A DNA stretch of 42,686 nt from Escherichia phage PGT2: sequence record NC_047890.1; one strand, written 5' to 3'. Made by a program: the position numbers and the translations under genes. Of this stretch, positions 1 to 31,509 are shown piece after piece (positions within the stretch are counted from its first letter, which is position 1; every line of letters begins with the position of its first letter). Below the pieces are notes generated by a model. That model worked only from the letters and a program-made list of their open reading frames with translations. It was not told the DNA's origin and ran no database searches.

Positions 1-260
1 TCCAACACAAATGAGGTCGCGTTTCCCCCGTAGGCCCGGCCTTCTGGATGGCTAAATGGCTGGATGGATGGATGGCTGGACGGCTAGACGTTTAGACGGC
101 TAAATGGCCAAATGACCGTAAAAAGGGCCGTGGGCACTGATAGGGTCAATCGGGCTGTAAGCCACGCCAACCGGGGTTTCCGCACATTACTTTATAAGAG
201 AGCTTGTAAGGTGTCTGGCGGCGATCCGTCTACGACGGGAGAAGGAAAGAGACGTGGGGT
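1..260. repeat. Left direct terminal repeat (DTR), 260 bp
   Basis: Bases 1-260 are identical to 42427-42686, checked block by block. The repeat runs to the window edge, so 260 bp is a minimum length. Confidence 0.9.
48..118. repeat. Array of short imperfect ~8-bp repeats (CTRRAYGG-like) inside the terminal repeat
   Basis: ggctaaatgg ctggatgg atggatgg ctggacgg ctagacgt ttagacgg ctaaatgg ccaaatga read directly. Resembles the short repeat series in T7 terminal repeats. Confidence 0.6.
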
Positions 261-7466: not shown

Positions 7467-7852
7467 TGGAGAGTTGTTGCATCTGCCATACGCAGAAAGG
7501 TCCCTATAATCAGGCAGGCCGTGCAACATACAAGGGCCGGATGGTGGGGTTACACAGGCTTATCTTCTTTAAGGAGTTCGGTTACTGGCCGGAAGTTGTC
7601 CTGCACCTCTGCGACAACCAGCGCTGTATAAATCCTGAACATCTGGTAGGAGGTACACAGGCAGACAACATCCGAGATGCAGTAGAGAAAGGGCGGTGGG
7701 TAAGAAATTTCCCTAATAAGTTATCCGCAGACACTGTTCGGGCCATACGAAGCGCGGTAGGCACAAACAAGCAGATAGCACAACAGTTTAATATAGACCC
7801 GGCGCATGTAAGCCGTATCAAAAATGGTATTGCTTATAAGGAGGTCACATAA
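7451..7852 (+). CDS. HNH homing endonuclease
   Basis: HNH core LHRLIF...HLCDNQRCINPEHL...N with a C-terminal helix-turn-helix-like segment; sits between primase and helicase. Confidence 0.7.
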   Translation: MRPTVMESCCICHTQKGPYNQAGRATYKGRMVGLHRLIFFKEFGYWPEVVLHLCDNQRCINPEHLVGGTQADNIRDAVEKGRWVRNFPNKLSADTVRAIRSAVGTNKQIAQQFNIDPAHVSRIKNGIAYKEVT

Positions 7853-9996: not shown

Positions 9997-12389
9997 TGTC
10001 CTATGTAACGTTCGATTTGGAGACAACGGTCAAATCCTTGGCTAAACGCAAGGCCAGCCCGTTCCACCCGAACAATTTCATAGTGGCGATTGGTTGGAAA
10101 CGACAAAACTGCTCTGTTCAGGGTAGTTACAGTAAAACGGGCGAGCACCATCCCAATTGGTTCGAAGGTCTTTTGGCAGGTACTAAATTACTTGTCGGCC
10201 AGAATATCAAATTTGACATTCTCTATGCTATAACCCGGTCCGAATCGGCATACGCCGCTTGGATGAACTGGGTAGAGGCCGGAGGAAATGTTTGGGATTG
10301 CCAGCTTGCCGAGTATTTACTGCGAGGTCAGGAACAATCAGCCCACATGTTGTCGATGGATGAGATGGTCGAGGAGTACGGCGGGAACACGAAGGTGGAT
10401 GAAGTCAAAGCCATGTGGGAAGCAGGCTACGATACACCGGAGATTCCTGAAGACTTGCTGATGCGTTATCTCTGCGGTGAGACAAGGGATGATGGTACTC
10501 GCGTGTTCGGCGACATTGAGAACACCGAAGCAATCTTCCTCGGTCAATTGAAGAAGGCACGTAAGCGCGGCCACCTGAAGTCCATCATGCTTAACATGGG
10601 GAGCCTGTTGGCCTCCATAGAGATGGAAAAGAACGGTATGGCCGTTGACCTGAAACTGGGCTTAGAGCAAGCCGAGAAGTTGAAGGTAGCGTGCAACGAA
10701 CTCCGCGAGAAAATGCAGCAGTACCTGCCAAGTGACCTACCGTGTGAGTTTAACTGGGGTTCCGGGCACCACTTATCGGCCCTTATCTTCGGCGGCGCGA
10801 TTAAGTACAAGCAGAAAGCCGAGATTCTGGATGACGAAGGCAACAACGTTTACCCACAGATTAAGGCCGTAGGCTACGAGACAGTAACCGGGGACTTCGT
10901 GGTGCCGGGCCACGGTATCTCTGAAGAGCGTTTTCAGGAGATGGTTGAGGCCGGGAACATTGCCACGTACAAGGCCGGGAAGAAGAAGGGCCAGTTCCGG
11001 TCCAAGCAGGTTAACGTTGATGACCTGTCCCGTCCTAAGACGAAGATAATGGAGTTCCGGTACAACATGCCGGGGTTCACGGAGCCGGACCCGAAGTGGG
11101 AGACGAAGCACGAAGGCGTTTACGCCACTAATGCGGACGTCATTGAGGAATTAGGAACACGCGACGTACCGTTCCTGAAAGACCTCACCAAGCTCAACAA
11201 AATGGATAAAGACCTGACGACATACTATATCTGCGAAGACCCTAAGAAAGAGGGGATGTTCAAAGGTATGTTGACGCTGGTCGGCGATGACGGCATTATC
11301 CACGGCAGCATTAACCACACCTCCACAGTGACCGGGCGATTCTCTGCGAGCAACCCTAACCTCCAGAACATCCCCCGTGCGGACACTTCTGAAGTTAAGA
11401 AGCTGTTCATCTCGCGCTTCGGCGACGACGGCCAGATTATTCAGTCTGACTTCTCGTCTCTGGAGATTTACGTTCAGGCATTACTCACAGGTGACAAGCA
11501 ATTGCTGGCAGACCTGAAGAAAGGTCTGGACATGCACTGCGTTCGCGTCGCCAGTAAATTCGGGGTGCCCTATGAGGAAGCAGTCAAACGTTGTAAGAAG
11601 GATGTTGACGCGCCGGACTACAAGCTATGGAAGTCTCGCAGGACTGGATGTAAGGAATTTTCATTCCAACGAGCATACGGCGCTGGAGCGGCAGCAGTGG
11701 CGAACTCTACGGGGATGTCTATTGAAGACGTGCAGGACCTTATCAAGTTAGAGGACGAACGTTACCCGGAGATTGAACCATTCTATGCAAGAGTTACAGC
11801 AGCAATTAACGAAAGCCGAGTACCAACAAGTCTGTATGTACATCATCCAGAGATACGGGGACTGTCTGTCTGCATCGGCAAAGGATTTTATAGAACGCCT
11901 GATGGGAAGAAATACACTTACCGAGAGTACCCTGCTCCGGCTGGTTTTATCAAACGCGGGGGTGCACACGCCTCCTTCTCGCCTCCTGAAATTAAGAACT
12001 ACATTGTGCAGGGTACAGGTGGCGAGTGGGCGAAAGCTGCGATGTGGCTTGCAGTCCGCACATTCTATCGTTTCAACAACTTCGGAGGAAAGGCGCTCTT
12101 AGTGAATATGGTGCACGATGCGCAATACGTCGATGCTCACAATGACGTGCTGTTCGAAGCCTGCGTAGCGTTACATGCTGCAATGGAAGCGGCCAGCGAG
12201 TTCATGGAGTACCGATTCGATTGGCAGGTCGATGCCCCGGTCCCTTCAGAAACAACCTTTGGCCCAGCGATGTACTACGAGACTGGTGCCGACACCCTGC
12301 CGGGATTCGCCGAAGCAGTGCGTGCTGAACGTCTCAAAATCCGTAAGCTGTACATGAACGACTACCAACCATCATTCGAGGGTAATTAA
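9996..12389 (+). CDS. Family A DNA polymerase with 3'-5' exonuclease domain
   Basis: Exo I motif FDLETT; polymerase motif A DFSSLEIYV, motif B RTGCKEFSFQRAYG, motif C VHDA. Confidence 0.9.
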   Translation: MSYVTFDLETTVKSLAKRKASPFHPNNFIVAIGWKRQNCSVQGSYSKTGEHHPNWFEGLLAGTKLLVGQNIKFDILYAITRSESAYAAWMNWVEAGGNVWDCQLAEYLLRGQEQSAHMLSMDEMVEEYGGNTKVDEVKAMWEAGYDTPEIPEDLLMRYLCGETRDDGTRVFGDIENTEAIFLGQLKKARKRGHLKSIMLNMGSLLASIEMEKNGMAVDLKLGLEQAEKLKVACNELREKMQQYLPSDLPCEFNWGSGHHLSALIFGGAIKYKQKAEILDDEGNNVYPQIKAVGYETVTGDFVVPGHGISEERFQEMVEAGNIATYKAGKKKGQFRSKQVNVDDLSRPKTKIMEFRYNMPGFTEPDPKWETKHEGVYATNADVIEELGTRDVPFLKDLTKLNKMDKDLTTYYICEDPKKEGMFKGMLTLVGDDGIIHGSINHTSTVTGRFSASNPNLQNIPRADTSEVKKLFISRFGDDGQIIQSDFSSLEIYVQALLTGDKQLLADLKKGLDMHCVRVASKFGVPYEEAVKRCKKDVDAPDYKLWKSRRTGCKEFSFQRAYGAGAAAVANSTGMSIEDVQDLIKLEDERYPEIEPFYARVTAAINESRVPTSLYVHHPEIRGLSVCIGKGFYRTPDGKKYTYREYPAPAGFIKRGGAHASFSPPEIKNYIVQGTGGEWAKAAMWLAVRTFYRFNNFGGKALLVNMVHDAQYVDAHNDVLFEACVALHAAMEAASEFMEYRFDWQVDAPVPSETTFGPAMYYETGADTLPGFAEAVRAERLKIRKLYMNDYQPSFEGN

Positions 12390-12391
12390 TA

Positions 12392-13330
12392 ATGGCTAAG
12401 CAATTTTCCGTACTGAAGAAGAAAGAACTGCTCGTAGACCAGACCAAAGCAAGCACTGGTGGTGACTATACGCCGCCAGCGGAAGGTCTGGCCCGTGCCC
12501 GACTCGTCGCCTACGTCGAGGTCGGCAAGCATGAGAAGGTCAGTAAGCAATACGGCACCAAGGTCCAGAGCATGGTGCATCTGACCTTCGAACTGTCCGG
12601 TCCGAAGTGGGAGCCGAAGAAGCTGGATGATGGTACTCTGATTCCGCAGCGTATCACCCTGAAAGAGAACCTGTCCACTAACACCAAGGCGCGATTCTAC
12701 AAGCTGTTCCTGAAGCTCCGCGATGGTCGTGAGGACATTACTCACTTCGCCGAAATGCTGGGTGAAGCCTGCCTCATCCGTATCAAGCACCGTGAGTACG
12801 AGGTGGATGCTGGCGGTAAGAAAGAGAAGCGCGTTGCGGTCGATGTGTACTCTCCAGACAGTGGTTGGTCAATCACTCCTCCGTACATCCTGAAAGATAT
12901 TATGGATGAGAACGACGAACCGACTGGCGAGCAAGAGAAGAAGCACGTCACCGTCTCCGACCCGGTTAGTGACCTCCGCCTGTTCATCTGGGATTGCGCG
13001 GACAAAGAGCAGTGGGACAGCCTGTACATCGAGCCGGGTGACGGCGACCGCAGCAAGAACGTGTTCCAAGAACTGATTGTCAACGCGAAGAACTTTATCG
13101 GTTCCCCGGCTGAAGCAGCGGCACACGGCTCTGAATCTCTGGAGGCCATTCTGAAGGGTGGTAAGGGTTCAACCGAGCCTGCCACTGACGATGACGATGA
13201 TGATGGCTCAGAAGGCGTTGTAGAGGATAAGAGCAGCAAGAAAGCTACCTCTGTTGTGAAGAAGGTCGTTAAGAAGACGGTAGAGGCTGAAAAGCCTGCT
13301 GACGAAGATGACTTAGGGGATATTGACTAA
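12392..13330 (+). CDS. Hypothetical protein with acidic C-terminal tail; possible ssDNA-binding protein (T7 gp2.5-like)
   Basis: C-terminus DDDDDDGSEG...ADEDDLGDID; position between polymerase and exonuclease. No sequence-level match verified. Confidence 0.35.
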   Translation: MAKQFSVLKKKELLVDQTKASTGGDYTPPAEGLARARLVAYVEVGKHEKVSKQYGTKVQSMVHLTFELSGPKWEPKKLDDGTLIPQRITLKENLSTNTKARFYKLFLKLRDGREDITHFAEMLGEACLIRIKHREYEVDAGGKKEKRVAVDVYSPDSGWSITPPYILKDIMDENDEPTGEQEKKHVTVSDPVSDLRLFIWDCADKEQWDSLYIEPGDGDRSKNVFQELIVNAKNFIGSPAEAAAHGSESLEAILKGGKGSTEPATDDDDDDGSEGVVEDKSSKKATSVVKKVVKKTVEAEKPADEDDLGDID

Positions 13331-13331
13331 C

Positions 13332-14282
13332 ATGACAAAGTTCAAGCTGCCTAAAGACCTCAGTTCGATGGTGCAGCCTGAACCTGTTAGCATTGTCCCT
13401 CCCCAAGTTCCGGGGAGGGTCTGCCATGTTGATGCGGACTTCTTAGCTTACTTCGCCGCTGGCGGTGAGAATATGCCTATTAGCATATGCCGCCAAGTGG
13501 TTAAGGAACGCGTCGAGAAGTTCCGCGTCATGACAGGATCAGAATCTGTACTCCTGCACCTGACGGACAGCCGCTCAACAAAAGGCGACAGATACCTCGT
13601 AGGTGCTACCGTACCATATCAGGGTCAACGTCTCTCTGGTAAGAAACCCGGTAACTGGGCGGCTACCCGAGAGTATATCGAATCAGGTACTCATGGCCTC
13701 CCCATGAAGTTCTGGAAGACGAGGGAGGCGGATGATGGGGTCGCATATTGTGCAGAACGCAGTGGTGGGGTTGACGCTATATGCACAAAAGATAAGGACT
13801 TTCGGATGTTCTCCGGGCTGCATTGCTTATGGGATACGTTCCAATTGGTGCAGGTTAATCCCGGTGATTTTCGTGTGGATGGTCCTGCTCCTGCCAAGGG
13901 CAAAGTACAGAAGTATTACGGCCACTTCTTCTTCTGGCAGCAGATGTTGTACGGAGATACTGCGGATAACATCCCCGGTATACATGGGATTGGCGAGGCC
14001 ACTGCCGCCCAACTTCTGCTTGATTGTACTAATAACGCCGAAGCATTCGATGTTGTCGCTGATATTTACAGGAAAAAGAAACGGGAGGGGTGGTCTGATT
14101 ATATGGTTGAGCAGGCTGCGCTTCTATGGATGCGAACTGACCGACACGCAGACCTGCTGGATTTCCTCAAGATATTCCCGGAAGATGAGGAAATTATCAT
14201 TGCTGCGGAGAAGATGAGGCAGCGGGTTCTCGAAGATAAGGCTACCTTAGAGAGCATACTCAAAGGTTACTCACATAAATAG
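13332..14282 (+). CDS. 5'-3' exonuclease / flap endonuclease (T7 gp6-like)
   Basis: H3TH-type motif GDTADNIPGIHGIGEATAAQLL; ORF track start 13323 is a TTG, ATG at 13332 has better SD spacing. Confidence 0.8.
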   Translation: MTKFKLPKDLSSMVQPEPVSIVPPQVPGRVCHVDADFLAYFAAGGENMPISICRQVVKERVEKFRVMTGSESVLLHLTDSRSTKGDRYLVGATVPYQGQRLSGKKPGNWAATREYIESGTHGLPMKFWKTREADDGVAYCAERSGGVDAICTKDKDFRMFSGLHCLWDTFQLVQVNPGDFRVDGPAPAKGKVQKYYGHFFFWQQMLYGDTADNIPGIHGIGEATAAQLLLDCTNNAEAFDVVADIYRKKKREGWSDYMVEQAALLWMRTDRHADLLDFLKIFPEDEEIIIAAEKMRQRVLEDKATLESILKGYSHK

Positions 14283-14295
14283 AGGGTATTCCGTG

Positions 14296-14775
14296 ATGAT
14301 GAAATTAACCCAATCCCTAATTCCCGTAGTAAGACGCAAGATGGCAGCAGAGCAAGGGAACCTGTGCCTATTATGCAGGGAACATATGGAAGATAAGCAA
14401 ATGGTGCTGGACCACGACCATGATACAGGCCACTGTCGCGGGGTTCTCCACAGAGGCTGTAATGCCATGCTCGGACATCTGGAAAACAACCGTGCCCGTC
14501 ACCTGCTGAAAGACGACGACAAGTTCGCTACGTTCCTCTCGAACATCATGGAATACATCAACATGGACTGCTCGCACCAGCCACTGCACAGCACTCATAA
14601 GAACACTGCGGAGAAGAAAGCGGCATCTTATGAGAAGTCCCGGAAGAAGTTAGTAGCTTCCCGGATTGCAGCCAACCCAACCGCCGCCGACGCTATCAAA
14701 GCGAAGGAAAAAGCATTGCGTAAAGTACGCGCCGACCGTAACCGTCCATCTGTTAAATCAAGCAAAGACATTTGA
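14296..14775 (+). CDS. Recombination endonuclease VII (Holliday junction resolvase)
   Basis: Zinc/catalytic motif CLLCREH...LDHDHDTGHCRGVLHRGCN, typical of T4 endo VII family. Confidence 0.8.
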   Translation: MMKLTQSLIPVVRRKMAAEQGNLCLLCREHMEDKQMVLDHDHDTGHCRGVLHRGCNAMLGHLENNRARHLLKDDDKFATFLSNIMEYINMDCSHQPLHSTHKNTAEKKAASYEKSRKKLVASRIAANPTAADAIKAKEKALRKVRADRNRPSVKSSKDI

Positions 14776-14782
14776 GGATATT

Positions 14783-15772
14783 ATGCCAAAGACTAATCTC
14801 ATTGCACTATTCACCAAGGAACAGCACCAGAACATCCTCGGCAAGCACCCCGACAACACGGCTGCTGCCAAGGCGTACAACGAACTGCTGGGCTGGAATA
14901 GTCCGGTAGTCTACCGCCAAGTGGTGGCGTACTGGCGCAAGATTTATATCGACCACGGTGGTAAGAAAGGCGAGGCTATTCGTGAAGAGAAACAAGCTGT
15001 TAAGCTGGTTCAGCCATCACCAAGTGACGATATTGGTAACACTGACGTCCCTGACGTGTGTCGCCGTATCCTTGTGGTTGGTGATTTACATGCTCCTTAT
15101 ACTCATCCCGACGCTATTGCTTTCCTTCGCCATGTCCGAGACAGTTATGTTCCTGACATGGTTGTTCAGGTAGGCGATGAGACGGACGGCCACGCAATCA
15201 GCTTCCACGACTCGGACCCGAATCTGGATAGCGCCGGGGTCGAATTAGAGAAAGCCAAAGCCGTACTGGAGCAATTACATGACCTGTTCCCGAACCTTCT
15301 GGTATGTGACTCCAATCACGGCAGTCTTGTGTATCGCCGCGCAAAGGCTCACGGTCTACCAGTGCAATTTATCAAGAAGTACCGTGATATTCTTTTCCCT
15401 GAGCACGGTGCTAAGAAGTGGTCATGGGCTGACGCATGGGTACTCAATACCCCGCTTGGCCAAGTTCGATTCCAACATCAAGTGTCGGGCGACTTCATGC
15501 TTAACGCCAGCCATGAGAGAACCTCGCTTGTCTTGGGTCACGAGCATGGTCGCTTTGAAGTGCAGTACGCAGCAAGCTCAACAGCTTTGTACTTTGGTGC
15601 ATACGCTGGGTGTCTGATTGACCGTAAGTCTCTGGCCTTTGCCTACGGCAAGTTGCACCGCAAGAAACCAATCCTCGGCGTGATGGTAATCACCGATGGT
15701 TGTCCGCAGTTAATCCCTATGCTGATGGATGAAAACGGGAGGTGGTGTGCGCGAGATAAAACCAAAGGTTGA
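14783..15772 (+). CDS. Calcineurin-like metallophosphoesterase
   Basis: Motifs VVGDLHAPY, VQVGDETDGH, CDSNHG, GHEH; in-frame ATG 14783 with upstream SD (ORF track start 14666 overlaps the endo VII gene). Confidence 0.65.
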   Translation: MPKTNLIALFTKEQHQNILGKHPDNTAAAKAYNELLGWNSPVVYRQVVAYWRKIYIDHGGKKGEAIREEKQAVKLVQPSPSDDIGNTDVPDVCRRILVVGDLHAPYTHPDAIAFLRHVRDSYVPDMVVQVGDETDGHAISFHDSDPNLDSAGVELEKAKAVLEQLHDLFPNLLVCDSNHGSLVYRRAKAHGLPVQFIKKYRDILFPEHGAKKWSWADAWVLNTPLGQVRFQHQVSGDFMLNASHERTSLVLGHEHGRFEVQYAASSTALYFGAYAGCLIDRKSLAFAYGKLHRKKPILGVMVITDGCPQLIPMLMDENGRWCARDKTKG

Positions 15773-15794
15773 TACAGGGAAGAGATTCCGGGGT

Positions 15795-16292
15795 ATGGTG
15801 GTGTACACTTGGGACTGCCCTTACTGTGGTAGAGAGTTTGAGGCTATACGGACTAAGCTCTTCAATACAAGTAAGCGAGGTGGTGCAGGGCATTGTGGGT
15901 GTCAGACTAAGGTTCGACAGTCACAAAGAAATGCAGGGCGTACACCGCCTAATAAGCTGGACGATTTGACAGCCTCCGCTAACAAGGTGTGGCAGTACAG
16001 TACCAAACTAGGCCGGAGCATTACTAAAGAGGATGCCAAAGCCTTAGTAAGTGCAAACTGTTACTACTGCGGGGCAGCGCCCAGCACCTACCGAGAGATT
16101 GGTGGAGGTCGCTGGTCGCGCAAGTCCGAAATACCCACAAACGGAATCGACAGAAAGGATTCATCTGTAGGTTATCACGTACATAATTGTGTACCTTGCT
16201 GCCCTACGTGCAACTACATGAAGTCCGATATGCACCACGACGACTTCTTGGAGTTGTGTAGTAAAATAGCCGACCGTTGGGCCGGTCGCTAA
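15795..16292 (+). CDS. HNH endonuclease (second free-standing copy)
   Basis: N-terminal CPYCG zinc motif and C-terminal HVHNCVPCCPTCNYMKSD HNH motif; start could also be ATG 15729. Confidence 0.65.
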   Translation: MVVYTWDCPYCGREFEAIRTKLFNTSKRGGAGHCGCQTKVRQSQRNAGRTPPNKLDDLTASANKVWQYSTKLGRSITKEDAKALVSANCYYCGAAPSTYREIGGGRWSRKSEIPTNGIDRKDSSVGYHVHNCVPCCPTCNYMKSDMHHDDFLELCSKIADRWAGR

Positions 16293-16332
16293 TTATACCG
16301 GGCACGGACGCCCATTCAATTGAGGATAATAT

Positions 16333-17052
16333 ATGTTGTTAATGCTCTCTGGCGCGATTGGCGCTGGCAAAGATACCTTCGGTGAGTTCCTGTACGACTC
16401 ATTCGACAAGTTCGGCTACAGCGTGGAAGTGGTGAAGTTTGCCGACCCCATTCGTGAAGCTGCATTTAAGCTCGGATTCAATCCAGATGACCGGGCAACC
16501 AAGGAAGTCCCTGCAATACGCCATTATAAACTCTCAGAACTTGATGAGGCCATTTTTACTACTCATACCTGCCTGACACCTTACGAGCGCCGAATGGTCG
16601 CTGTACGAGTTCACCAGAGATTAATTAACATTCGCAAGGAGAAACATGATGGCATCTACAAGCCTGTCGTCAGTACGCGAGAATTTATGCAGGTCGTCGG
16701 TGGGACTGTACGAGACGCTAAAGAAGATTATTACATCCAGCACATGCTTCTCAATACACCAGAATCACGCGTTAACATCTGCACTGATACTCGGTTCATC
16801 AACGAGCAGCGAATTGGGGATTATTCGGTCTACGTTGAGCGCCCAAACAACCCGTTGGCGGTTCATACCCGCGACGCGTCGGAAGCAGCACAAGCGTTGC
16901 TCCGGGGGGCGGCGAAGAAAGTAATCCTGAACAACAGCACTCTGGATAATCTGGCTGAAGAAGCCGATTACGTGGCTACAACATTAATTTCAAAAGGGTA
17001 TTGTGATGACGCAGTTAAAGACGCAGGCGGAACTGGAATCTTTATCGAGTGA
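16333..17052 (+). CDS. P-loop deoxynucleoside monophosphate kinase-like protein
   Basis: N-terminal P-loop MLLMLSGAIGAGKDT resembles T4 dNMP kinase MKLIFLSGVKRSGKDT; strong SD tgagga. Confidence 0.6.
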   Translation: MLLMLSGAIGAGKDTFGEFLYDSFDKFGYSVEVVKFADPIREAAFKLGFNPDDRATKEVPAIRHYKLSELDEAIFTTHTCLTPYERRMVAVRVHQRLINIRKEKHDGIYKPVVSTREFMQVVGGTVRDAKEDYYIQHMLLNTPESRVNICTDTRFINEQRIGDYSVYVERPNNPLAVHTRDASEAAQALLRGAAKKVILNNSTLDNLAEEADYVATTLISKGYCDDAVKDAGGTGIFIE

Positions 17053-18976
17053 GCGCGGTCTTGCCAAGCTGATGGCCGAGTGTGAGCAGGCTGAATCAGC
17101 GGGGCGTGCATCCGGCGCGTTTTATGCCAAGCAGTTGTTAGAGCGTTTTGTTAACCGTATGGCCGAACGTATTGACCACGAGATGGCGAATCCGGGTGCT
17201 GGCCGCGCGAAAGCGCATAAGAAACTGGTCGCTGTGTTTGACTCCAAAGTCACTGCGTTTATTTCTGTATCAACCACATTGAACATGCTGATGGTCAACG
17301 AGCAGACACCGGGCACCAGCCTTAGTCGCGCCCTCGGCAATGCAATGTATAACGAACTGTTCTGTACCACATTCGACGATGCCAACCCGGACCTGTTTCA
17401 CACCATCTGCAAGGACTTGGATAAGCGCCAGAGCAAATCCAGCCGCCACCGCATGACGGTACTGAAGAATCAGGCAGCGAAGAAGGGTATCGCGTGGGAG
17501 AACTGGACCGTCACCGAAATCCTTCAGGTCGGTGAGTGGTGTCTGGATAATCTGGTGTCAGTTGGTCTGTGCGAAACGCATACCGAGGTGTCTCGCGGTA
17601 AGGCGAAGATGTACGTGGAACTGTCCGACGAGGCGCTGGGAATGATTGAGGATACCAAACGTCTGGTGTCCTTCTTCCGGCCCCAGCGCCTCCCGTTCGT
17701 AGAGAAGCCTCTGGACTGGACCGGGATTGTTGGTGGTGGCTACCATACTGCTCGTATGCAGAGTACGATGCCTCGTTGCATCAAAGCCAGCCCGACCCAG
17801 ATGGATGTACTCATAAAGCACCGTGACGACTACAAGGATACGGTGGTGGCGTGCATTAACACTCTGCAATCGGTAGAGTGGCGTATCAACAAGCGTATTC
17901 TGGAAGTGCAGCAGCAGATGTTCCGAGGCTTTGAGCCGAAGAACAAGCCTGATGCTCTGGAGTGTCATAGCAAGGACGTTGAAGAGTGGACCGAGGCAGA
18001 TAAATCTCTACACAGCCACTGGAAGAAGGAAATGGCTCGCTGGTACACAGAGCAGCGTGCAGAGCGTTATGCCGCTTCACGACATGCCTACACGTTGTCA
18101 GTGGCACGAGAGTTCGCTGACTACCCGCGTATCTGGTTCATGTACTTCGCCGACTGGCGCGGGCGTTATTACCCGGCCACCACAGGCATCTCGCCGCAGG
18201 GGACCGACATCTCTAAATCCATGCTGGAGTTCGCCAATGGCAAGCCCATCTCTGACCCAATCGCAGAACAGTTCTTCTTCCTCCTTGGTTCAACTAAATT
18301 CGGATTCGACAAAGGCTCTATATCCGAACGAGTTCAGTGGGTTCACAAGAATCACGACCTTATCTTGGCGTGTGCCGACGAACCGCTACTACATACTGAT
18401 TTCTGGTACAGAGAAGCAGATAAGAAGACCCGCTACCAATTTCTGGCATGGTGTTTTGAATATGCTGAATACACGCGGTTCCCAGCTGGATTTGTATCAC
18501 GACTTCCGGTGTCTCTTGATGGCACATGTAATGGCCTACAACACTATTCGGCGATGCTACGAGATTCGGTTGGTGCTAAGGCTACCAACCTGTTACCTGC
18601 TAACCGACCAAACGATATTTACGCGCAAGTCGCAGGCGTTGTCACCAACCTTCTTGAAAGCATGTCACCTGCCGACTTCCCGGCACTGACACGCGAATCT
18701 AAGCCTCTCAGCGTCTATGAGGTGGACTTCTTCCGTAGGGCATGGTTACACCACGGTATCAGCCGTAGCCTCGTTAAACGGTGCGTTATGACGTTACCTT
18801 ACGGGTCCAAGAAGTTCAGCATGGGTCGCTTCATCAAAGGCGACTACATGATGGACATTCACCCGGAAGAGTTCGACACCGACGACTACACCGACGCAAA
18901 GTATGTTCCCGCCAGACCAGAGTTCGGTGACCTCGATTTAGAGCAGGTCAATCACTCCGAATACTTCTTCCTGTAG
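17006..18976 (+). CDS. T7-like single-subunit RNA polymerase, apparently lacking the C-terminal ~190 aa (motif C and C-terminus)
   Basis: PLDWTGIVGGGY, DWRGRYY...PQGTD, FLAWCFEYA, LDGTCNGLQHYSAMLRD (motif A) and VMTLPYGSKKF (motif B) align with T7 RNAP; the ORF stops about 50 residues after motif B. Confidence 0.85.
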   Translation: MTQLKTQAELESLSSERGLAKLMAECEQAESAGRASGAFYAKQLLERFVNRMAERIDHEMANPGAGRAKAHKKLVAVFDSKVTAFISVSTTLNMLMVNEQTPGTSLSRALGNAMYNELFCTTFDDANPDLFHTICKDLDKRQSKSSRHRMTVLKNQAAKKGIAWENWTVTEILQVGEWCLDNLVSVGLCETHTEVSRGKAKMYVELSDEALGMIEDTKRLVSFFRPQRLPFVEKPLDWTGIVGGGYHTARMQSTMPRCIKASPTQMDVLIKHRDDYKDTVVACINTLQSVEWRINKRILEVQQQMFRGFEPKNKPDALECHSKDVEEWTEADKSLHSHWKKEMARWYTEQRAERYAASRHAYTLSVAREFADYPRIWFMYFADWRGRYYPATTGISPQGTDISKSMLEFANGKPISDPIAEQFFFLLGSTKFGFDKGSISERVQWVHKNHDLILACADEPLLHTDFWYREADKKTRYQFLAWCFEYAEYTRFPAGFVSRLPVSLDGTCNGLQHYSAMLRDSVGAKATNLLPANRPNDIYAQVAGVVTNLLESMSPADFPALTRESKPLSVYEVDFFRRAWLHHGISRSLVKRCVMTLPYGSKKFSMGRFIKGDYMMDIHPEEFDTDDYTDAKYVPARPEFGDLDLEQVNHSEYFFL

Positions 18977-19062
18977 TACCCGGCCAAGGATGGCTACCTT
19001 CCCTCTCTATTTCGTCACCTACAATAGCACACAATACCCTCAAACTGTTCTTCTTGAACACT

Positions 19063-19095
19063 AGCCTTGGCCTCTTTGGTCAGGGCTATTTTTTC
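19063..19095 (+). terminator. Rho-independent terminator downstream of the RNA polymerase ORF
   Basis: 10-bp stem agccttggcc / ggtcagggct (two G-U pairs), loop tcttt, then attttttc. Confidence 0.65.
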
Positions 19096-19139
19096 TGATT
19101 TAGGGTATTTGTTAAATATGGCTTGAAGCCTTGATATAT

Positions 19140-19169
19140 GGGGTTTCCGCACATTATTTTAATAAGGGG
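19140..19169 (+). promoter_or_regulatory. Conserved 28-bp element GGGGTTTCCGCACATTAYTTTA(A)TAAGRG; candidate phage promoter or other regulatory site
   Basis: Near-identical copies at 173-200 and 42599-42626 (inside the terminal repeats); first 17 nt identical, then 1 mismatch and 1 indel. Confidence 0.4.
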
Positions 19170-19509
19170 TCCGGAGGGTGTTAAAATGTTCCTTAAATTT
19201 TACTTTGGTTAATTTCTAAGTTAAGCGAAAGCCAACTTAGTAAGGTAAGAGATTATTACCGGATTAGTGGTCCATACCGTAGTGAGTTAGAAAGACTACA
19301 TTCCCGGATTAGTGAGTTAGAGGGTGCTCTTTCCTCCTCAGAGTCTGTACCAGAACCTGTTACAGAAATATTCAGTAGAATGAACTATGAGGTGTACGAA
19401 TACTTTGAGCGTACAGTAAGTAATACTTCTGTAGCTAGTTCTACTACTGATTTAGAAGCTGGGTTTAAATTAGGTGTCCAGCATGTTCTCGCCAAGTTGA
19501 GGAATGGGT

Positions 19510-19938
19510 ATGTCACACCGCGAAGTCTCTGATTCTGATTGGGTAGCTAGTGTTCCTAAGTTGGTTGAGGCTATTTGCAACTCACCCAGCAGGATGATAT
19601 GTGATATTGACGTAGAGGCTACTCTGGCTCATTTTATGGCCGTAGCCACTCGTGGTGGTGCGTATATTGTCAAGGAGAAGTATCTGGTCGTATTCGACCG
19701 CTACAAGCTCTGGTATGCACCTACCAAGGATATTATCGAAGAGAAGATTGTCCTGTGTATTTACCCAGAAAATCCCGGCTCAATGTTCGATGTTGTCCGA
19801 TTTCTAATTGAACAACGTGATTACCTTGAAGCGAATCACTTGGTCATAGGTGACTTCCTGCACACTAATCAGGAAAAGTATGGTCGAGTCCTAACTAAAT
19901 TAGGGTTGACCAAAATCAACTCAGTTTACGCATGTTAG
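19510..19938 (+). CDS. Hypothetical protein (143 aa) in a compositionally atypical region
   Basis: SD gagga 6 nt before ATG 19510 (ATG 19504 is too close to the SD); no recognisable motif; region is more AT-rich than neighbours. Confidence 0.5.
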   Translation: MSHREVSDSDWVASVPKLVEAICNSPSRMICDIDVEATLAHFMAVATRGGAYIVKEKYLVVFDRYKLWYAPTKDIIEEKIVLCIYPENPGSMFDVVRFLIEQRDYLEANHLVIGDFLHTNQEKYGRVLTKLGLTKINSVYAC

Positions 19939-19948
19939 GAGGTTCCCA

Positions 19949-20551
19949 ATGGGAGGCTTACTCGGTGGCGGCGATAACGGTAAATCTCAAGCAAAGGCTA
20001 CCCGTGAAGCTGCCGAACGTCAGGCACAGGCAACATTGCAGGCCGCACGGGAGCAGATAGAGGCTCAGAACCGTCAGGCGGCTGCACAGCAACAATGGTC
20101 CAGTCAACAGGCCGCGCAACAGCGTGAGTTTGAGGCCCAGCTAAATCAGACCAATCAAGAATACCAATCAACCCTACAGGCACAACAGCTTGCTCAGCAG
20201 AAAGCACTCACTGAACAGACTAACGCCATTAACAAGGCGTATCAGGACAAGATGGCTAGTCTGCAACAGCAGGCCAACGAACAGCAGCAGTTTGAGTACA
20301 CCCAGCAGCTTTTACAGTCTTCCGCAGACGCACAGCGCCAGCAGGCACTGAAGGAAGCGCAGGATGCTACTTGGATGCCGCAGGAACAGGTTGAGGTTAC
20401 TCTGGCCGCAGATAGCTCTACGTATCTGGACGAGCAACGTCGTAGACGTCCCGTGAGCAACCTATACAATGGTGCAGGCAACGTGAACACGGCTTCGGCG
20501 AATGGGCAGTCTACGAGTGGCACAGGGCTTTCTAGTGGATTGAGGATTTAA
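19949..20551 (+). CDS. Gln/Ala-rich coiled-coil protein (200 aa), probable virion or assembly protein
   Basis: Strong SD aggagg; low-complexity Q/A-rich sequence; first gene of the structural block. Confidence 0.55.
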   Translation: MGGLLGGGDNGKSQAKATREAAERQAQATLQAAREQIEAQNRQAAAQQQWSSQQAAQQREFEAQLNQTNQEYQSTLQAQQLAQQKALTEQTNAINKAYQDKMASLQQQANEQQQFEYTQQLLQSSADAQRQQALKEAQDATWMPQEQVEVTLAADSSTYLDEQRRRRPVSNLYNGAGNVNTASANGQSTSGTGLSSGLRI

Positions 20552-20552
20552 T

Positions 20553-21491
20553 ATGACCGATGATGAAGCTCGCCAACTTGCTCAATGGGGCGAGGATGAA
20601 ATTGCCCGGATACTCGGACTGAACAGAAACTCATATTTGTCGGCACAGGGTCAGTCAGTAGCGGATTGGTCCAGCCGCTGGTCTTCCGGTCTAAATGACA
20701 TTTCTGGATATTATGACCAAGGTAAGGCTAACTCCCTGTACGCATCCCTTGGTGGGACTACATCGTCCACGTACCTTAACCAGTTGTCGATGCTGGCAGA
20801 GGAATCCAACAAGCTCTACACCTTAATTAATAACCCTAACGCAGTACACTCCAAGCTCCGGGAAGAGGCCGGGAGGCAAGGCGGTGTCGCGCAGTTCTCT
20901 ATCGGTATGGGTTATCGTACTGAAGGTAACGGTGGTTACGTTTACGACCTGATGGGCAACAGATTCAACGACATAACGATGAGTCCGCTGTACAAATCCT
21001 TGTATAGCATGGTTGATAGTTTTAGCAATCAGCAGGGTAAAATCGTCAATGAGTTGAACGCACAGCAGGGCCGTGAGCAGAACTATATCAGTCAGATTAG
21101 TGGTTTATTGCAGCAGGGTACGTTAGCAAAGACCAAAGCTGAACAGGAAGCTCAGAGGAAGGCGCTTGAAGAGCAGTATGCACAGCAACAGGAAGAATTG
21201 AACAAACAGGCTGCAGAGAATGCACGTATCCTCAAGGAGAAGCAGGAAGCTCAGACCAAGATGTTCAACGAGTCCGCTAAGGTTACGGCGGAATCCAACG
21301 CAGCGACATCCCAGCTTCAACAGGCCAAATCTGCTGCCACTCAGGTAGCCAATGTAGGTTCAGCCCGTGGTGGTGAGGCAATATCCTCAACCAACGCAGC
21401 CGCTAAATCAAAGACCAGACAAACCACGCGTACTGAACGCTGGCAGTCAACCCGCTCCCCAGCCGCTGGCGGTGGCGGCATCAACGTTTAA
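20553..21491 (+). CDS. Hypothetical virion-associated protein (312 aa) with Q/E-rich coiled-coil segment
   Basis: SD gagga; coiled-coil-like segment KTKAEQEAQRKALEEQYAQQQEELNKQAAE; immediately upstream of portal. Confidence 0.55.
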   Translation: MTDDEARQLAQWGEDEIARILGLNRNSYLSAQGQSVADWSSRWSSGLNDISGYYDQGKANSLYASLGGTTSSTYLNQLSMLAEESNKLYTLINNPNAVHSKLREEAGRQGGVAQFSIGMGYRTEGNGGYVYDLMGNRFNDITMSPLYKSLYSMVDSFSNQQGKIVNELNAQQGREQNYISQISGLLQQGTLAKTKAEQEAQRKALEEQYAQQQEELNKQAAENARILKEKQEAQTKMFNESAKVTAESNAATSQLQQAKSAATQVANVGSARGGEAISSTNAAAKSKTRQTTRTERWQSTRSPAAGGGGINV

Positions 21492-21502
21492 CAGGAGCTA
21501 TC

Positions 21503-23056
21503 ATGACCAACGCAGACAACGCTGTACAATCAACCGTTACAGCGCCGTCTCGCTGGACTGAACTTGACGGGCAGAGACGTAGCCTAGTGCGTCGGTGGGA
21601 GTCGTATTCCATCTACACCATCCCCTACATCTGCCCTGATGAGAACTACCAGCAGGACACGGATGAAATGACCCACGACTTCCAAGCAGTGGGCGCACAA
21701 GCCGTGAACAGTCTCGCCAACAAAATCATGTTAGCTCTGTTCGCACCATCCAGACCATTCTTCAAACTCGACCCGGATGATGACACCAAGGAAGAGTTGA
21801 TGAAGGTTGGTATCGACCCAGACGCATTGAAAGATGTGTTCTCATCCTTGGAACTTCAGAGCGCAAAGCTGCTGGATACCAAGAATTTCCGCCCGGTAAT
21901 GTTCGAAATCATCAAGTCACTCATCGTCACTGGCAATAGCCTGATGGACTTAGGTAACGAAGTGGCATATGTCCGGGTACGTGATTTTGTAGTGAAGCGT
22001 GACTACTACGGTCGCCCATGCGAAATCATGATTAAGACCTGCCTCAAATTTGAGCAGTTGACCATGGACGTTCAGGAATCCTGCCAGCAGAAGAAGCCGC
22101 ATGGATACACCCCTGACACGAAGGTGGACGTTTACCGTTGGTACAAAGTGGATGAGACGGGTAAACGTATGAAGATGACTTACTGGATAGATGACCTCTC
22201 TCTGGAAGATGGCAAGTATCAAGGGGATTGGAAGAGGGAAGATTGTCCCGTCCGCCCACTGACTTGGTGTCTTACTGCGAATGCCGACTACGGAACTGGT
22301 CTGGTAGAGGAATACGCTGGCGACTTCGCCGCGCTATCCACGATGTCAACCTCTTTCGTTCAGGGTAGTGTTCTCGCTTCCGAGTTCCGCTGGCTCTCCA
22401 ACCCGGCTGGTATGACCCAACCGGAAGATGTCCGCGACTCAAATAACGGTGCAGTAATTCCCGGCGTCGAAGGCGACCTATCCCTTATCTCTGCTGGTCA
22501 GGGTATGGGGCAGACTCTCCAGATGATGATGAACGGGATGGACATCTACACCCGACGTATCAGTCAAGGATTCTTGATGATGTCCGGTGTTACCCGCGAT
22601 GCAGAACGTGTGACCGCCGAAGAGATTCGGATGCAGGCCAACGAACTGGAGAACTCGCTGGGTGGAGCGTATAGCCGACTGGCTATCGACATGCAGCTTC
22701 CAATTGCCAACTGGCTTCTGGATATGCAAGACCTGTCCATCAAAGGCGTCAAGATGAACGTATCCATCGTGACTGGCCTCAACGCACTGTCTCGTAATGG
22801 CGACCTTGATAATCTCAATGCTGCCGTAGGCAATATCACCGCAATGTACCAGATGCCGCCGTTGGCTATGCGACTGCTCAAAATGGATGCAGTCATCTCC
22901 GACATCATGGCAGGCCACGGCCTGTTGGCAGCCCGGTACGTCAAAACTCAAGCTGAAGTTGCTCAAGAAGAACAGCAGGCTCAACAGCAGGCTCTTGCTC
23001 AACAAGGCGCGGCAAACGTGGTAGACCAAGCCACGATGCCTCAACAACCAATGTGA
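21503..23056 (+). CDS. Portal (head-tail connector) protein
   Basis: AVGAQAVNSLANKIMLALF matches T7 gp8 AVGARGLNNLASKLMLALF; size and position fit. Confidence 0.85.
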   Translation: MTNADNAVQSTVTAPSRWTELDGQRRSLVRRWESYSIYTIPYICPDENYQQDTDEMTHDFQAVGAQAVNSLANKIMLALFAPSRPFFKLDPDDDTKEELMKVGIDPDALKDVFSSLELQSAKLLDTKNFRPVMFEIIKSLIVTGNSLMDLGNEVAYVRVRDFVVKRDYYGRPCEIMIKTCLKFEQLTMDVQESCQQKKPHGYTPDTKVDVYRWYKVDETGKRMKMTYWIDDLSLEDGKYQGDWKREDCPVRPLTWCLTANADYGTGLVEEYAGDFAALSTMSTSFVQGSVLASEFRWLSNPAGMTQPEDVRDSNNGAVIPGVEGDLSLISAGQGMGQTLQMMMNGMDIYTRRISQGFLMMSGVTRDAERVTAEEIRMQANELENSLGGAYSRLAIDMQLPIANWLLDMQDLSIKGVKMNVSIVTGLNALSRNGDLDNLNAAVGNITAMYQMPPLAMRLLKMDAVISDIMAGHGLLAARYVKTQAEVAQEEQQAQQQALAQQGAANVVDQATMPQQPM

Positions 23057-23065
23057 GGGTAATTC

Positions 23066-23986
23066 ATGACCGTATCAACTCCGTCAACTCCGGTACAACA
23101 AGCAGCAGCCCCAGCGGCTGCTCCGGCACCACAAGCTCCGGCACAGAGCGGCATCCCGTATGTTCCGCCTGCCCCTGTAGCTCCGGCTGCTCCGGTGGAA
23201 GCACCGCAAGCAACGCTTGACCCGAATCAATTCGCTAACCCGTCTCAGGCAGGCATCCCCGCCGCCTCGGTACAGCAGCCAGCACCGCAGTCTCCACCGC
23301 AGGCTCCCGTAGAGCCGCCAGCACAGCAGACGCCATCGCAGGCAGAATTAACGCTGACAGAGAAACCGCTGTACAAGCACGAGCCTACTGGCAACGTTGC
23401 TTATGATATGGCTATGAATGCCTTCGCAGCTAAGGGATTCTCCCCGGACCACCCTGCGTTCGTCCCGGCATCCAAAGGTGACTTCTCCGCACTGGAGGCG
23501 TTCGTCAAGGAGCAAGGCATCGACCCGCAATATCTGGCACTGGCTCAACAGGCGTACATCCAGATTTCTGAGCACCACAACGCCACTCATGGCGAGACTA
23601 TCAAGAAAGCATTGGAAGTCGCTGGTGGTCAGGAACGCTGGAACAAGGTGCAGGCGTGGGTGCAGGATGTTGCCAGCCCGGAAGAGATTACTTACTACAA
23701 ACAGCAGCTTGAAGCTGGTGGTGTTGCCACCCTGAAGGCTGTGGAATACCTGTCCGGCCTGTACGGACAACATGCAGAGAATGCCCCGGCCCAGCCGAGT
23801 GAATCACCTGCTACCCCGTTCAATACCAATTCGTCACCTACAATAGCAACTAACGGTGCCCCGATTTCCCCGCAAGAATTTCGGGCAGAACTGTCTCGTC
23901 TCATTGACAAGGTAGGGTACTCCGGTCTGGAAACCTCACCGGAATACAAAGCGTTGCAACAACGTCGTCAGGCGTGGCGCGGGTAA
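23066..23986 (+). CDS. Capsid assembly (scaffolding) protein with Pro/Ala/Gln-rich N-terminal region
   Basis: Located between portal and major capsid, 306 aa; assigned by synteny only. Confidence 0.6.
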   Translation: MTVSTPSTPVQQAAAPAAAPAPQAPAQSGIPYVPPAPVAPAAPVEAPQATLDPNQFANPSQAGIPAASVQQPAPQSPPQAPVEPPAQQTPSQAELTLTEKPLYKHEPTGNVAYDMAMNAFAAKGFSPDHPAFVPASKGDFSALEAFVKEQGIDPQYLALAQQAYIQISEHHNATHGETIKKALEVAGGQERWNKVQAWVQDVASPEEITYYKQQLEAGGVATLKAVEYLSGLYGQHAENAPAQPSESPATPFNTNSSPTIATNGAPISPQEFRAELSRLIDKVGYSGLETSPEYKALQQRRQAWRG

Positions 23987-24035
23987 CATACATCCCTCCC
24001 GTCCTGCCGTAATCTTTGCTTAGAAGGAAACATAA

Positions 24036-25019: not shown

Positions 25020-25026
25020 TCCAACT

Positions 25027-25059
25027 AGCCTCTACCTTAATTGGTAGGGGCTATTTTTC
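25027..25059 (+). terminator. Rho-independent terminator after the major capsid gene
   Basis: Stem agcctctacc / ggtaggggct (one G-U pair), loop ttaatt, then atttttcc. Confidence 0.65.
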
Positions 25060-25083
25060 CTAAAGTATTCAGAGGAACTTTTC

Positions 25084-25698: not shown

Positions 25699-25701
25699 TC
25701 T

Positions 25702-28332: not shown

Positions 28333-28334
28333 CT

Positions 28335-29162: not shown

Positions 29163-29171
29163 TGAGGCTAT

Positions 29172-31490: not shown

Positions 31491-31509
31491 TAACACATAG
31501 GAACCTCCG

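What the first reader, a model, noticed from the sequence alone, without database searches (positions are those of the whole stretch)
17006..19938. RNA polymerase ORF ends ~50 residues after motif B and abuts an AT-rich island with an unknown ORF
The ORF has the T7-type RNAP N-terminal, thumb and palm motifs, including motif A (LDGTCNGLQHYSAMLRD) and motif B (VMTLPYGSKKF), but stops at 18976. From remembered T7 RNAP, about 190 further residues are expected, carrying the specificity loop, motif C (HDSFG with the second catalytic Asp) and the C-terminal FAFA. None of these appears in any of the six frames downstream or elsewhere in the window. The stop is followed by a strong terminator (19063-19095), an AT-rich stretch (about 36% G+C by hand count over 19101-19300), a copy of a terminal-repeat motif, and a 143-aa ORF with no recognisable family. 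Possible explanations are replacement of the RNAP 3' end by acquired DNA, an assembly or sequencing defect, or a split or atypical polymerase.
Basis: partly seen in the sequence, partly recalled or inferred. Interest (0 to 1): 0.8.

Follow-up and report, generated by a model that had tools for sequence, protein, structure and literature searches.

The report
Internal deletion in phage RNA polymerase gene
The short RNA polymerase gene of this phage genome (Escherichia phage PGT2) lacks a 501-base in-frame piece from its middle, including a catalytic motif, so it most likely reflects a defective stock or a faulty sequence record rather than a new kind of polymerase.

Summary
The window is the complete genome of Escherichia phage PGT2, shown by an exact protein match to ATS92446.1 and a 42,686-bp contig. 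Its T7-type RNA polymerase ORF (17006-18976, 656 aa) really is short.

- **Where the loss is.** It is not cut at the 3' end. It lacks exactly 167 internal codons (501 bp), which are phiKT residues 632-798 and roughly T7 residues 674-859. The lost piece holds the specificity loop, H784 and motif C with the catalytic Asp. The last 25 residues, including the counterpart of the T7 C-terminal tail, are kept in frame.
- **What lies downstream.** The terminator, the AT-rich stretch and the two small ORFs are 97-99% identical to phiKT and are syntenic in other relatives. This DNA is ancestral, not acquired.
- **How unusual the deletion is.** Every relative found has a polymerase of about 800-830 aa. 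The junction occurs nowhere else. The missing segment is nowhere in the window.
- **Age of the lesion.** The retained part shows no decay, with 0 private amino-acid changes. A one-base homopolymer frameshift lies 300 bp downstream.

The best reading is a very recent loss-of-function deletion in the sequenced stock, or an error in the 454 assembly or record. It is ordinary biology, but it is a flaw in a reference record.

The parts
17006..18976 (+). T7-type single-subunit RNA polymerase ORF, 656 aa, with an internal 167-codon in-frame deletion
   Evidence: ORF listed. Pfam RPOL_N plus a partial RNA_pol match. Exact match to ATS92446.1 of phage PGT2. Residues 1-631 are 98% identical to phiKT 1-631.
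18896..18901 (+). Deletion junction (GCA|AAG, Ala631|Lys632). It joins phiKT codon 631 to codon 799; phiKT nt 13789-14289 are absent.
   Evidence: blastn and tblastn breakpoints. Junction sequences in PGT2, phiKT, L003 and L005 show no microhomology. No repeats lie at the breakpoints.
18899..18976 (+). Retained native C-terminal tail of the polymerase (25 codons plus stop), the counterpart of T7 residues 860-883
   Evidence: tblastn places phiKT 798-823 on window 18896-18973 in the same frame. Alignment of phiKT to T7 RNAP.
19062..19095 (+). Intrinsic terminator after the polymerase gene
   Evidence: Stem of 11 pairs with a T-run. The stem is invariant in phiKT and L005 and recognisable in L007 and L008.
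19140..19161 (+). 22-nt motif GGGGTTTCCGCACATTATTTTA. Candidate phage-polymerase promoter at the head of the late operon.
   Evidence: Three copies in the window, including both terminal repeats, against 0 expected by chance. Conserved at this site in phiKT and L005, and in L007 in degenerate form. The promoter function is inferred, not shown.
173..194 (+). Copy of the same motif in the left terminal repeat, repeated at 42599-42620 in the right terminal repeat
   Evidence: The terminal repeat 1-260 equals 42427-42686 and matches the 260-bp repeat in the paper.
19186..19532 (+). Conserved small ORF (phiKT ORF13 counterpart, 115 aa in relatives). In this record it is broken by a missing T in the T-run 19198-19201.
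   Evidence: T4 here against T5 in phiKT and L005. tblastn shows the frame switch. Inserting one T restores a 115-aa ORF.
19510..19938 (+). Conserved 142-aa ORF (phiKT ORF14 counterpart) with a predicted GNAT-like fold
   Evidence: 100% identical in protein to phiKT ORF14. Eight homologue clusters of 141-147 aa. PHROG 37045 and 6472, unknown function. AF2 model with pLDDT 78.9. The top 50 Foldseek PDB hits were almost all GNAT-family acetyltransferases or GNAT-fold proteins.

Best explanation
The window is the deposited genome of the lytic coliphage PGT2 (genus Ermolevavirus, phiKT-like Autographiviridae). Its T7-type RNA polymerase gene carries a 501-bp in-frame internal deletion seen in no other sequence.

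The deletion removes 167 codons, equivalent to T7 residues about 674-859. These cover the rest of the fingers, the promoter specificity loop, H784 and motif C with the second catalytic Asp. The N-terminal 631 residues become fused to the native last 25 residues.

The encoded protein keeps the N-terminal domain, motif A and motif B. It cannot carry out two-metal catalysis or read its promoter, so it is a dead enzyme. It is not a short, split or 3'-replaced polymerase.

The lesion is evolutionarily instantaneous. Either a defective deletion variant dominated the lysate that was sequenced and was complemented in trans by intact phage, or the 454/Newbler consensus or the deposited record is wrong. 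I rate these two sub-scenarios about equal, with a slight preference for the first. My reason is an inference: 454 reads of about 417 nt should have spanned the junction, and no repeat is present that could mislead an assembler.

The downstream terminator, candidate phage promoter, AT-rich small ORF and GNAT-like ORF are the normal ancestral start of the late region.
For: Identity of the window:
- Exact protein look-up returns PGT2 ATS92446.1/YP_009795460.1 on a 42,686-bp contig.
- The terminal repeat of 260 bp matches the paper.

The deletion:
- Window 16275-18897 matches phiKT 11165-13787, and window 18899-36764 matches phiKT 14290-32144.
- tblastn places both flanks in the same frame.
- The absent phiKT segment translates to ANFLG...MIHDDYG...EAQAIS.
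- It aligns to T7 674-859, including HDSFG.

Uniqueness:
- 47 of the 49 homologues are 796-866 aa; the other two, distant at 33-35% identity, are 553-554 aa.
- All listed members of its 90% cluster are 823 aa, apart from PGT2 itself and one 158-aa fragment.
- The 167-aa segment is found in 2,480 phage records.
- The junction peptide and junction DNA are absent from the viral, metagenome and genome collections.

No replacement:
- No other match to the missing segment exists in the window.
- Every other phiKT gene is intact and syntenic.

Recency:
- There are 0 private amino-acid changes in the retained 656 residues against 13 full-length relatives.
- Against phiKT, 47 codons differ synonymously and 12 non-synonymously.
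- The terminator and candidate promoter are unchanged.

Record quality and context:
- A T5 to T4 homopolymer frameshift lies 300 bp downstream and breaks an ORF that is intact in phiKT and L005.
- PGT2 is a plaque-forming phage sequenced only by 454 and assembled with Newbler.
Against: - No reads are available, so neither sub-scenario is shown directly.
- The paper reports a single contig at 96x. That argues against a simple mis-assembly and implies that most molecules carried the junction. This is hard to reconcile with a phage that must make its own polymerase, unless helper genomes were present.
- No microhomology or repeat explains the breakpoints.
- The essentiality of the polymerase has not been tested in this genus. 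It is inferred from T7 biology.
- An in-frame deletion has a 1 in 3 chance by accident. It could instead hint at selection for a stable truncated protein.
Confidence: 0.85

Rival explanations
1. The deletion is real, and PGT2 is a viable phage that does not need a catalytically active polymerase of its own. Late genes would be transcribed by the host polymerase, or the truncated protein would serve a non-catalytic role.
For: - PGT2 was isolated and propagated as a plaque-forming phage, and assembly gave one contig at 96x.
- The deletion is in frame and keeps the native C-terminus.
- Sigma-70-like sites exceed the shuffled expectation in 18800-20100, with 6 found against 1.8 expected.
- From general knowledge, T7-related phages without any phage polymerase exist (SIO1, VpV262), and Xp10 uses the host enzyme for its late genes.
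Against: - No relative of any degree shares the short form.
- There is no compensatory change. The terminator between the middle and late genes and the candidate phage promoter match those of relatives with intact polymerases.
- The polymerase sequence was under purifying selection right up to the present, with 0 private amino-acid changes.
- Loss of the motif C Asp abolishes catalysis in T7 RNAP (established knowledge).
Confidence: 0.07
2. The 3' end of the polymerase gene was replaced by horizontally acquired AT-rich DNA carrying an unknown ORF.
For: G+C drops to 36-40% just after the gene, against 51.6% for the genome.
Against: - The native last 25 codons and the stop codon are present.
- The region 18960-19540 is about 99% identical to phiKT and 97% across three genomes, more conserved than the genome average.
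- The same gene order follows full-length polymerases in L005, L007, L008 and L009.
- The low G+C is therefore an old, shared property of this segment.
Confidence: 0.01
3. This is a split polymerase, with the missing fingers, specificity-loop and motif C part supplied from a separate gene.
For: From general knowledge, engineered T7 RNAP tolerates splitting. PHROG 2166 is a 505-position profile covering only the N-terminal part of such polymerases, which hints that fragment ORFs exist in some phage records.
Against: - tblastn of the whole window in six frames finds no second fragment.
- PGT2-specific DNA occurs only in pieces of about 1.1 kb or less, and these are HNH-type or tail-fibre sequences.
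- The product is a fusion of both flanks, not two ORFs.
Confidence: 0.01

Closest known systems
RNA polymerase of Escherichia phage phiKT (AEZ65095.1, 823 aa), the sister species in genus Ermolevavirus
   Same: 98% identical over residues 1-631 and 92% over the last 26 residues. The flanking genes, terminator and downstream ORFs are the same.
   Different: phiKT has the 167 residues 632-798, with the specificity loop and MIHDDYG (motif C). PGT2 lacks exactly these.
T7 RNA polymerase (PDB 1ARO, 1CEZ, 1QLN and others)
   Same: Same family, E = 1e-106 for phiKT against T7. The N-terminal domain, motif A Asp, motif B Lys/Tyr and C-terminal tail are all identifiable in PGT2.
   Different: The counterpart of T7 residues about 674-859 is absent. 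That covers specificity loop 739-770, H784 and H811/D812. In T7 these are needed for promoter recognition and catalysis (established knowledge).
Laboratory T7 gene 1 deletion mutants, which are propagated only where T7 RNAP is supplied in trans (from general knowledge, not tested here)
   Same: A T7-group genome whose polymerase gene is inactivated by a deletion while everything else is intact. Such genomes are fully complementable because the enzyme is diffusible.
   Different: Those are engineered or selected on complementing hosts. Here the allele sits in the reference record of a wild isolate, and no complementing source is known.
T7-supergroup phages that naturally lack a phage RNA polymerase (for example roseophage SIO1 and vibriophage VpV262; from general knowledge)
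   Same: They show that T7-like replication and structural modules can run on the host polymerase alone.
   Different: Those lineages have no polymerase gene at all and have adapted promoters. PGT2 keeps a freshly damaged gene, its terminator and its candidate phage promoter.

Membership tests
T7-type single-subunit RNA polymerase (Pfam PF14700 + PF00940) | N-terminal promoter-opening domain (RPOL_N) | tested here: met
   PF14700 matches at E = 1.6e-11 over residues 8-289.
T7-type single-subunit RNA polymerase (Pfam PF14700 + PF00940) | Palm motif A with the first catalytic Asp (T7 D537) and motif B (T7 K631, Y639) | tested here: met
   LDGTCNG lies at residues 504-510 and VKRCVMTLPYGSKKF ends at residue 604. 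Both align to T7 motifs A and B.
T7-type single-subunit RNA polymerase (Pfam PF14700 + PF00940) | Motif C with the second catalytic Asp (T7 H811-D812) | tested here: not met
   phiKT MIHDDYG lies inside the deleted codons 632-798. No copy exists anywhere in the window.
T7-type single-subunit RNA polymerase (Pfam PF14700 + PF00940) | Promoter specificity loop (T7 739-770) | tested here: not met
   It falls inside the deleted segment.
T7-type single-subunit RNA polymerase (Pfam PF14700 + PF00940) | Full-length catalytic domain | tested here: not met
   PF00940 is matched only over profile positions 16-183 of 448. PHROG 414 is matched over positions 3-624 of 816.
T7-type single-subunit RNA polymerase (Pfam PF14700 + PF00940) | C-terminal tail (T7 FAFA 880-883 region) | tested here: met
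   ...NHSEYFFL is retained in frame and aligns to T7 ...ESDFAF.
T7-type single-subunit RNA polymerase (Pfam PF14700 + PF00940) | Polymerase activity | not testable with these tools
   Needs in vitro transcription with the 656-aa protein.
Genus Ermolevavirus (phiKT-like Autographiviridae) | Genome-wide nucleotide similarity and synteny with phiKT | tested here: met
   Blocks are 85-97% identical across the genome, and all phiKT CDS are found in the same order. The record is named PGT2.
Split or fragmented polymerase | A second ORF encoding the missing part | tested here: not met
   Six-frame tblastn of the window finds none.
GNAT acetyltransferase (for the 142-aa ORF at 19510-19938) | GNAT fold | tested here: met
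   AF2 model with pLDDT 78.9 and pTM 0.75. The top 50 Foldseek PDB hits were almost all GNAT-family acetyltransferases or GNAT-fold proteins, mostly with TM 0.5-0.67 and E down to 9e-5.
GNAT acetyltransferase (for the 142-aa ORF at 19510-19938) | Sequence-family membership and the acetyl-CoA loop Q/R-x-x-G-x-G/A | tested here: inconclusive
   There is no Pfam hit. Only the central Gly of the loop (G92) is invariant among the nine homologues, and the other motif positions do not match.
Phage-polymerase promoter (for the 22-nt motif) | Conserved motif repeated in the transcription direction at the operon head and near the genome end | tested here: met
   Three copies against 0 expected by chance. 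Conserved at the same site in relatives.
Phage-polymerase promoter (for the 22-nt motif) | Transcription initiation by the phage enzyme | not testable with these tools
   Needs 5'-end mapping or in vitro transcription.

The most novel reading that the evidence does not exclude
PGT2 truly carries the 501-bp deletion in all its genomes and still forms plaques. It would then be an autographivirus growing with a catalytically dead single-subunit polymerase. Its late genes would be expressed by the host polymerase despite the intervening terminator, caught at the first step of losing the defining gene of its family.
Probability: 0.06. Interest if true: 0.8.

Novelty: already known. Interest (0 to 1): 0.22.

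Why it matters
As biology this is most likely just a broken copy of a well-understood gene. Its practical importance lies in the databases.

- The record is the RefSeq exemplar of the species Ermolevavirus PGT2.
- Its 656-aa protein (YP_009795460.1, in UniRef) is labelled as an RNA polymerase.
- Anyone using it for polymerase phylogeny, promoter-specificity prediction or enzyme mining would inherit a protein without its specificity loop and catalytic motif. The authors explicitly offered the genome as a source of protein sequences.
- The neighbouring homopolymer frameshift suggests the record needs re-sequencing.

If the deletion proved real and tolerated, it would challenge the assumption that Autographiviridae depend on their own polymerase.

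Tried and rejected
1. **MAFFT alignment of the four polymerase genes.** It placed the 501-nt gap about 45 nt too far 3'. I relied on the BLAST breakpoints and manual register instead.
2. **Microhomology or direct repeats at the breakpoints** in phiKT, L003 and L005. None lies at the junction. The nearest similar 20-mer pair is offset by 20-29 nt and only 75% alike.
3. **Inverted repeats that could bring the breakpoints together.** Only 8-13-nt chance-level arms were found.
4. **The junction in other sequences.** The exact 30-mer and a codon-degenerate pattern were scanned in viral, metagenome and genome contigs. All returned 0.
5. **Exact-product look-up of the 656-aa protein in assemblies.** Nothing is on record.
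6. **DNA for the closest cluster members P0052 and P0054.** I reached relatives through P0001, P0064, P0066 and P0068 instead.
7. **Literature.** The genome announcement and the papers citing PGT2 do not mention the polymerase lesion.
8. **Pfam on the 187-aa Cys-rich ORF at 15729-16292 and on ORF13.** No family was found.
9. **Text-editing accident.** I considered accidental removal of whole lines from the sequence file. 501 is not a multiple of 60, 70 or 80, so there is no support for this.
10. **Intein or intron in relatives.** Rejected, because the segment absent from PGT2 is core polymerase sequence found in 2,480 phage records.
Full report
**What the window is.** An exact-sequence look-up of the 656-aa product of 17006-18973 returns RNA polymerase ATS92446.1/YP_009795460.1 of Escherichia phage PGT2, on a contig of 42,686 bp, which is the length of the window. 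The window has a perfect 260-bp terminal repeat, 1-260 = 42427-42686, as the genome announcement describes (PMC5773715). The only close relative among 50,697 phage records is phiKT (JN882298/NC_019520, genus Ermolevavirus, Autographiviridae), at 95.6% identity over the queried 4.1 kb. The two genomes are collinear but start at different points.

**Checking the observation.** The ORF is there: 17003/17006-18976, 657 aa from GTG or 656 aa from ATG. Relatives begin MTQLK or MMQLK, so ATG 17006 is the start. Motif A is at residues 504-520 and motif B at 594-604, and the ORF ends 52 residues later. Pfam RNA_pol is matched only over profile positions 16-183 of 448, and PHROG 414 over 3-624 of 816. 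The terminator at 19062-19088 plus T-run, the 36.0% G+C of 19101-19300 against 51.6% overall, the copy of a terminal-repeat motif and the small ORF without a Pfam family are all confirmed.

**What is really missing.** The 4,101-nt query maps onto 4,602 nt of phiKT in two pieces.
- Window 16275-18897 matches phiKT 11165-13787, and window 18899-36764 matches phiKT 14290-32144.
- With the phiKT polymerase (823 aa) as tblastn query, residues 1-631 fall on 17006-18898 and residues 798-823 fall on 18896-18973, in the same reading frame. Nothing else in the window matches in any frame.
- The window therefore lacks exactly codons 632-798 of the phiKT gene (nt 13789-14289, 501 bp, 167 codons).
- The native last 25 codons (KYVPARPEFGDLDLEQVNHSEYFFL) and the stop codon are retained.
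- The absent peptide runs ANFLGDIVWK ... NIVHSLDAAHL ... FAMIHDDYGTHAAD ... EAQAIS.
- In a phmmer alignment of phiKT to T7 RNAP (E = 1e-106), it corresponds to T7 A674-D859. That includes the specificity loop (T7 739-770), H784 and the HDSFG motif C with D812. The retained tail corresponds to T7 860-883.

The lesion is internal and in frame.

**The junction.** The window reads ...ACC GAC GCA | AAG TAT GTT.... In phiKT and in two Logan relatives the left side reads ...ACC GAC GCG GCG AAC and the right side reads ...TCC AAG TAT. There is no microhomology. No direct or inverted repeat at the breakpoints could explain slippage or mislead an overlap assembler. Base 18898 (A) matches neither flank in relatives. 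It is either a synonymous variant or an untemplated base.

**Is the short form a property of the lineage?** No.
- Of the 49 homologues found among 5.8 billion proteins, 47 are 796-866 aa. The other two are distant (33-35% identity) and 553-554 aa.
- In the 90%-identity cluster of 35 members, the 15 listed are all 823 aa, except PGT2 itself and one 158-aa fragment.
- The deleted 167-aa segment is detected in 2,480 phage records, 2,384 of them at 80% coverage or more.
- The junction was sought as an exact 30-mer and as a codon-degenerate pattern for DYTDAKYVP. It is absent from the viral, metagenome and genome contig collections.
- The 656-aa product is on no other assembly.

**Is the downstream DNA foreign?** No.
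- Window 18960-19540 is about 99% identical to phiKT, and 97% mean column identity in a three-way alignment with Logan contig L005. That exceeds the genome average.
- The order dNMP kinase, RNA polymerase (823-824 aa), small ORF (111-135 aa), 142-aa ORF, roughly 200-aa ORF, roughly 304-343-aa ORF, portal is kept in L005, L007, L008 and L009. These include relatives whose 142-aa protein is only 60% identical.
- The low G+C is therefore an old, shared feature of this block and is unrelated to the polymerase lesion.

**Age of the lesion.**
- The retained 656 residues have no private amino-acid substitution when compared with 13 full-length relatives.
- Against phiKT, 47 codons differ synonymously and 12 non-synonymously. 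Of 40 nucleotide changes private to PGT2 among four genes, 7 alter the protein, and all 7 states occur in other functional relatives.
- The terminator stem and the 22-nt motif that follow are unchanged.
- The gene was under purifying selection until essentially the present, and there is no sign of compensation for its loss.

**Record quality.** All other phiKT coding sequences are found intact in the window as single-frame matches, except the small ORF just downstream. There, a T-run at 19198-19201 has four T where phiKT and L005 have five. This breaks a 115-aa ORF that starts at ATG 19186 behind a GGAGGG ribosome-binding site. Inserting one T restores it. That is the classic 454 homopolymer error. 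According to the paper, PGT2 was sequenced only on a 454 Junior (9,893 reads, mean 417 nt) and assembled with Newbler into one contig at 96x. Two gene-breaking lesions within 300 bp of each other, in a genome that is otherwise intact, point to a local problem rather than two independent events.

**Most likely explanation.** The anatomy is shown directly: an in-frame 501-bp internal deletion, unique to this record, in an otherwise standard T7-type polymerase gene. Non-function is inferred. From established knowledge of T7 RNAP, the motif C aspartate is one of the two metal ligands and the specificity loop reads the promoter. PGT2 is a plaque-forming lytic phage. A terminator and a candidate phage-specific promoter separate its late genes from upstream transcription. 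The recorded allele therefore probably does not represent the replicating phage. Two sub-scenarios remain, and I cannot separate them without reads:
- A defective deletion variant was the majority of the sequenced lysate and was complemented in trans by intact genomes. I slightly prefer this one. My reason is an inference: a single contig at 96x with about 417-nt reads implies that reads spanned the junction, and no repeat is there to fool the assembler.
- An assembly, consensus or curation error occurred. The adjacent homopolymer error favours this.

Together I give these 0.85.

**Rivals.**
- A viable phage that tolerates a dead polymerase (0.06-0.07) is not excluded, but it has no positive support beyond the isolate being viable and the deletion being in frame.
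- Replacement of the 3' end by acquired DNA is refuted by the alignments.
- A split polymerase is refuted by the six-frame search. PGT2-specific DNA occurs only in pieces of about 1.1 kb or less.

**The surroundings.**
- The 22-nt motif GGGGTTTCCGCACATTAYTTTA occurs at 173-194, 19140-19161 and 42599-42620, against 0 expected by chance. It is conserved at the post-terminator site in phiKT, L005 and L007. A phage-polymerase promoter is the natural reading, but it is untested.
- The 142-aa ORF (19510-19938) is 100% identical to phiKT ORF14. It belongs to PHROGs of unknown function and is predicted to have a GNAT-like fold (pLDDT 78.9), and the top 50 PDB matches were almost all GNAT-family acetyltransferases or GNAT-fold proteins. 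It has no Pfam hit and only a degenerate acetyl-CoA loop.

**Novelty and verdict.** This is a known gene family in a known phage genus, carrying a loss-of-function deletion that is most likely a stock or record defect. None of the papers found mentions it, so it is worth reporting to curators. It is not new biology. Interest 0.22.

Noticed in passing
window 19186-19532 (T-run 19198-19201): A one-base homopolymer difference (T4 against T5 in phiKT and L005) breaks a conserved 115-aa ORF, the counterpart of phiKT ORF13. It is probably an uncorrected 454 error. The phiKT annotation seems to start this ORF too far upstream (131 aa, against the 115 aa called in L005).
   Followed up: yes
window 173-194, 19140-19161, 42599-42620: A 22-nt motif, GGGGTTTCCGCACATTAYTTTA, is present in both terminal repeats and just after the polymerase terminator. 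It is conserved in relatives and is a candidate phage-polymerase promoter. No other copies occur even with 3 mismatches allowed, so late transcription may start from very few promoters.
   Followed up: partly
window 19510-19938: The conserved 142-aa protein of unknown function is predicted to have a GNAT acetyltransferase-like fold. It has no Pfam match and only a degenerate acetyl-CoA loop.
   Followed up: partly
window 15729-16292: A 187-aa Cys-rich ORF, with an HNH-like ...HNCVPCCPTCNYMK... stretch by eye, lies in a roughly 550-bp block that phiKT lacks at this site. A gene of the same length sits at the same place in L005. It has no Pfam family. A different HNH gene (7478-7822, PF13392) sits between primase and helicase, whereas in phiKT the HNH gene follows the DNA polymerase. 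Homing-endonuclease genes therefore occupy different sites in the two phages.
   Followed up: partly
window 19949-21491: Two conserved ORFs between the GNAT-like gene and the portal gene are not annotated in phiKT but are called in all relatives fetched. They are 200 aa (Gln-rich) and 312 aa (coiled-coil-looking).
   Followed up: no
PHROG 2166, matched by window 17006-18973: A PHROG named 'N4-like RNA polymerase' has a profile of only 505 positions and matches only the N-terminal 605 residues of this T7-type enzyme. It is the likely source of the odd RefSeq product name for PGT2 and phiKT. It also hints that N-terminal polymerase fragments occur as separate ORFs in other phage records.
   Followed up: no
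window 36244-36829: A long array of imperfect 21/42-nt repeats rich in Ala, Thr and Ser codons lies in the tail-fibre gene. It sits just before the region where PGT2 and phiKT diverge (the receptor-binding part, 64% protein identity overall).
   Followed up: no
window 1425-1930 and 2097-2686: Early-region repeats are present. There are three to four copies of AAGAAAGAGATTGACAAG-type sequences, which contain a TTGACA hexamer and may be an array of host promoters. There is also a 30-nt sequence repeated 560 nt apart.
   Followed up: no
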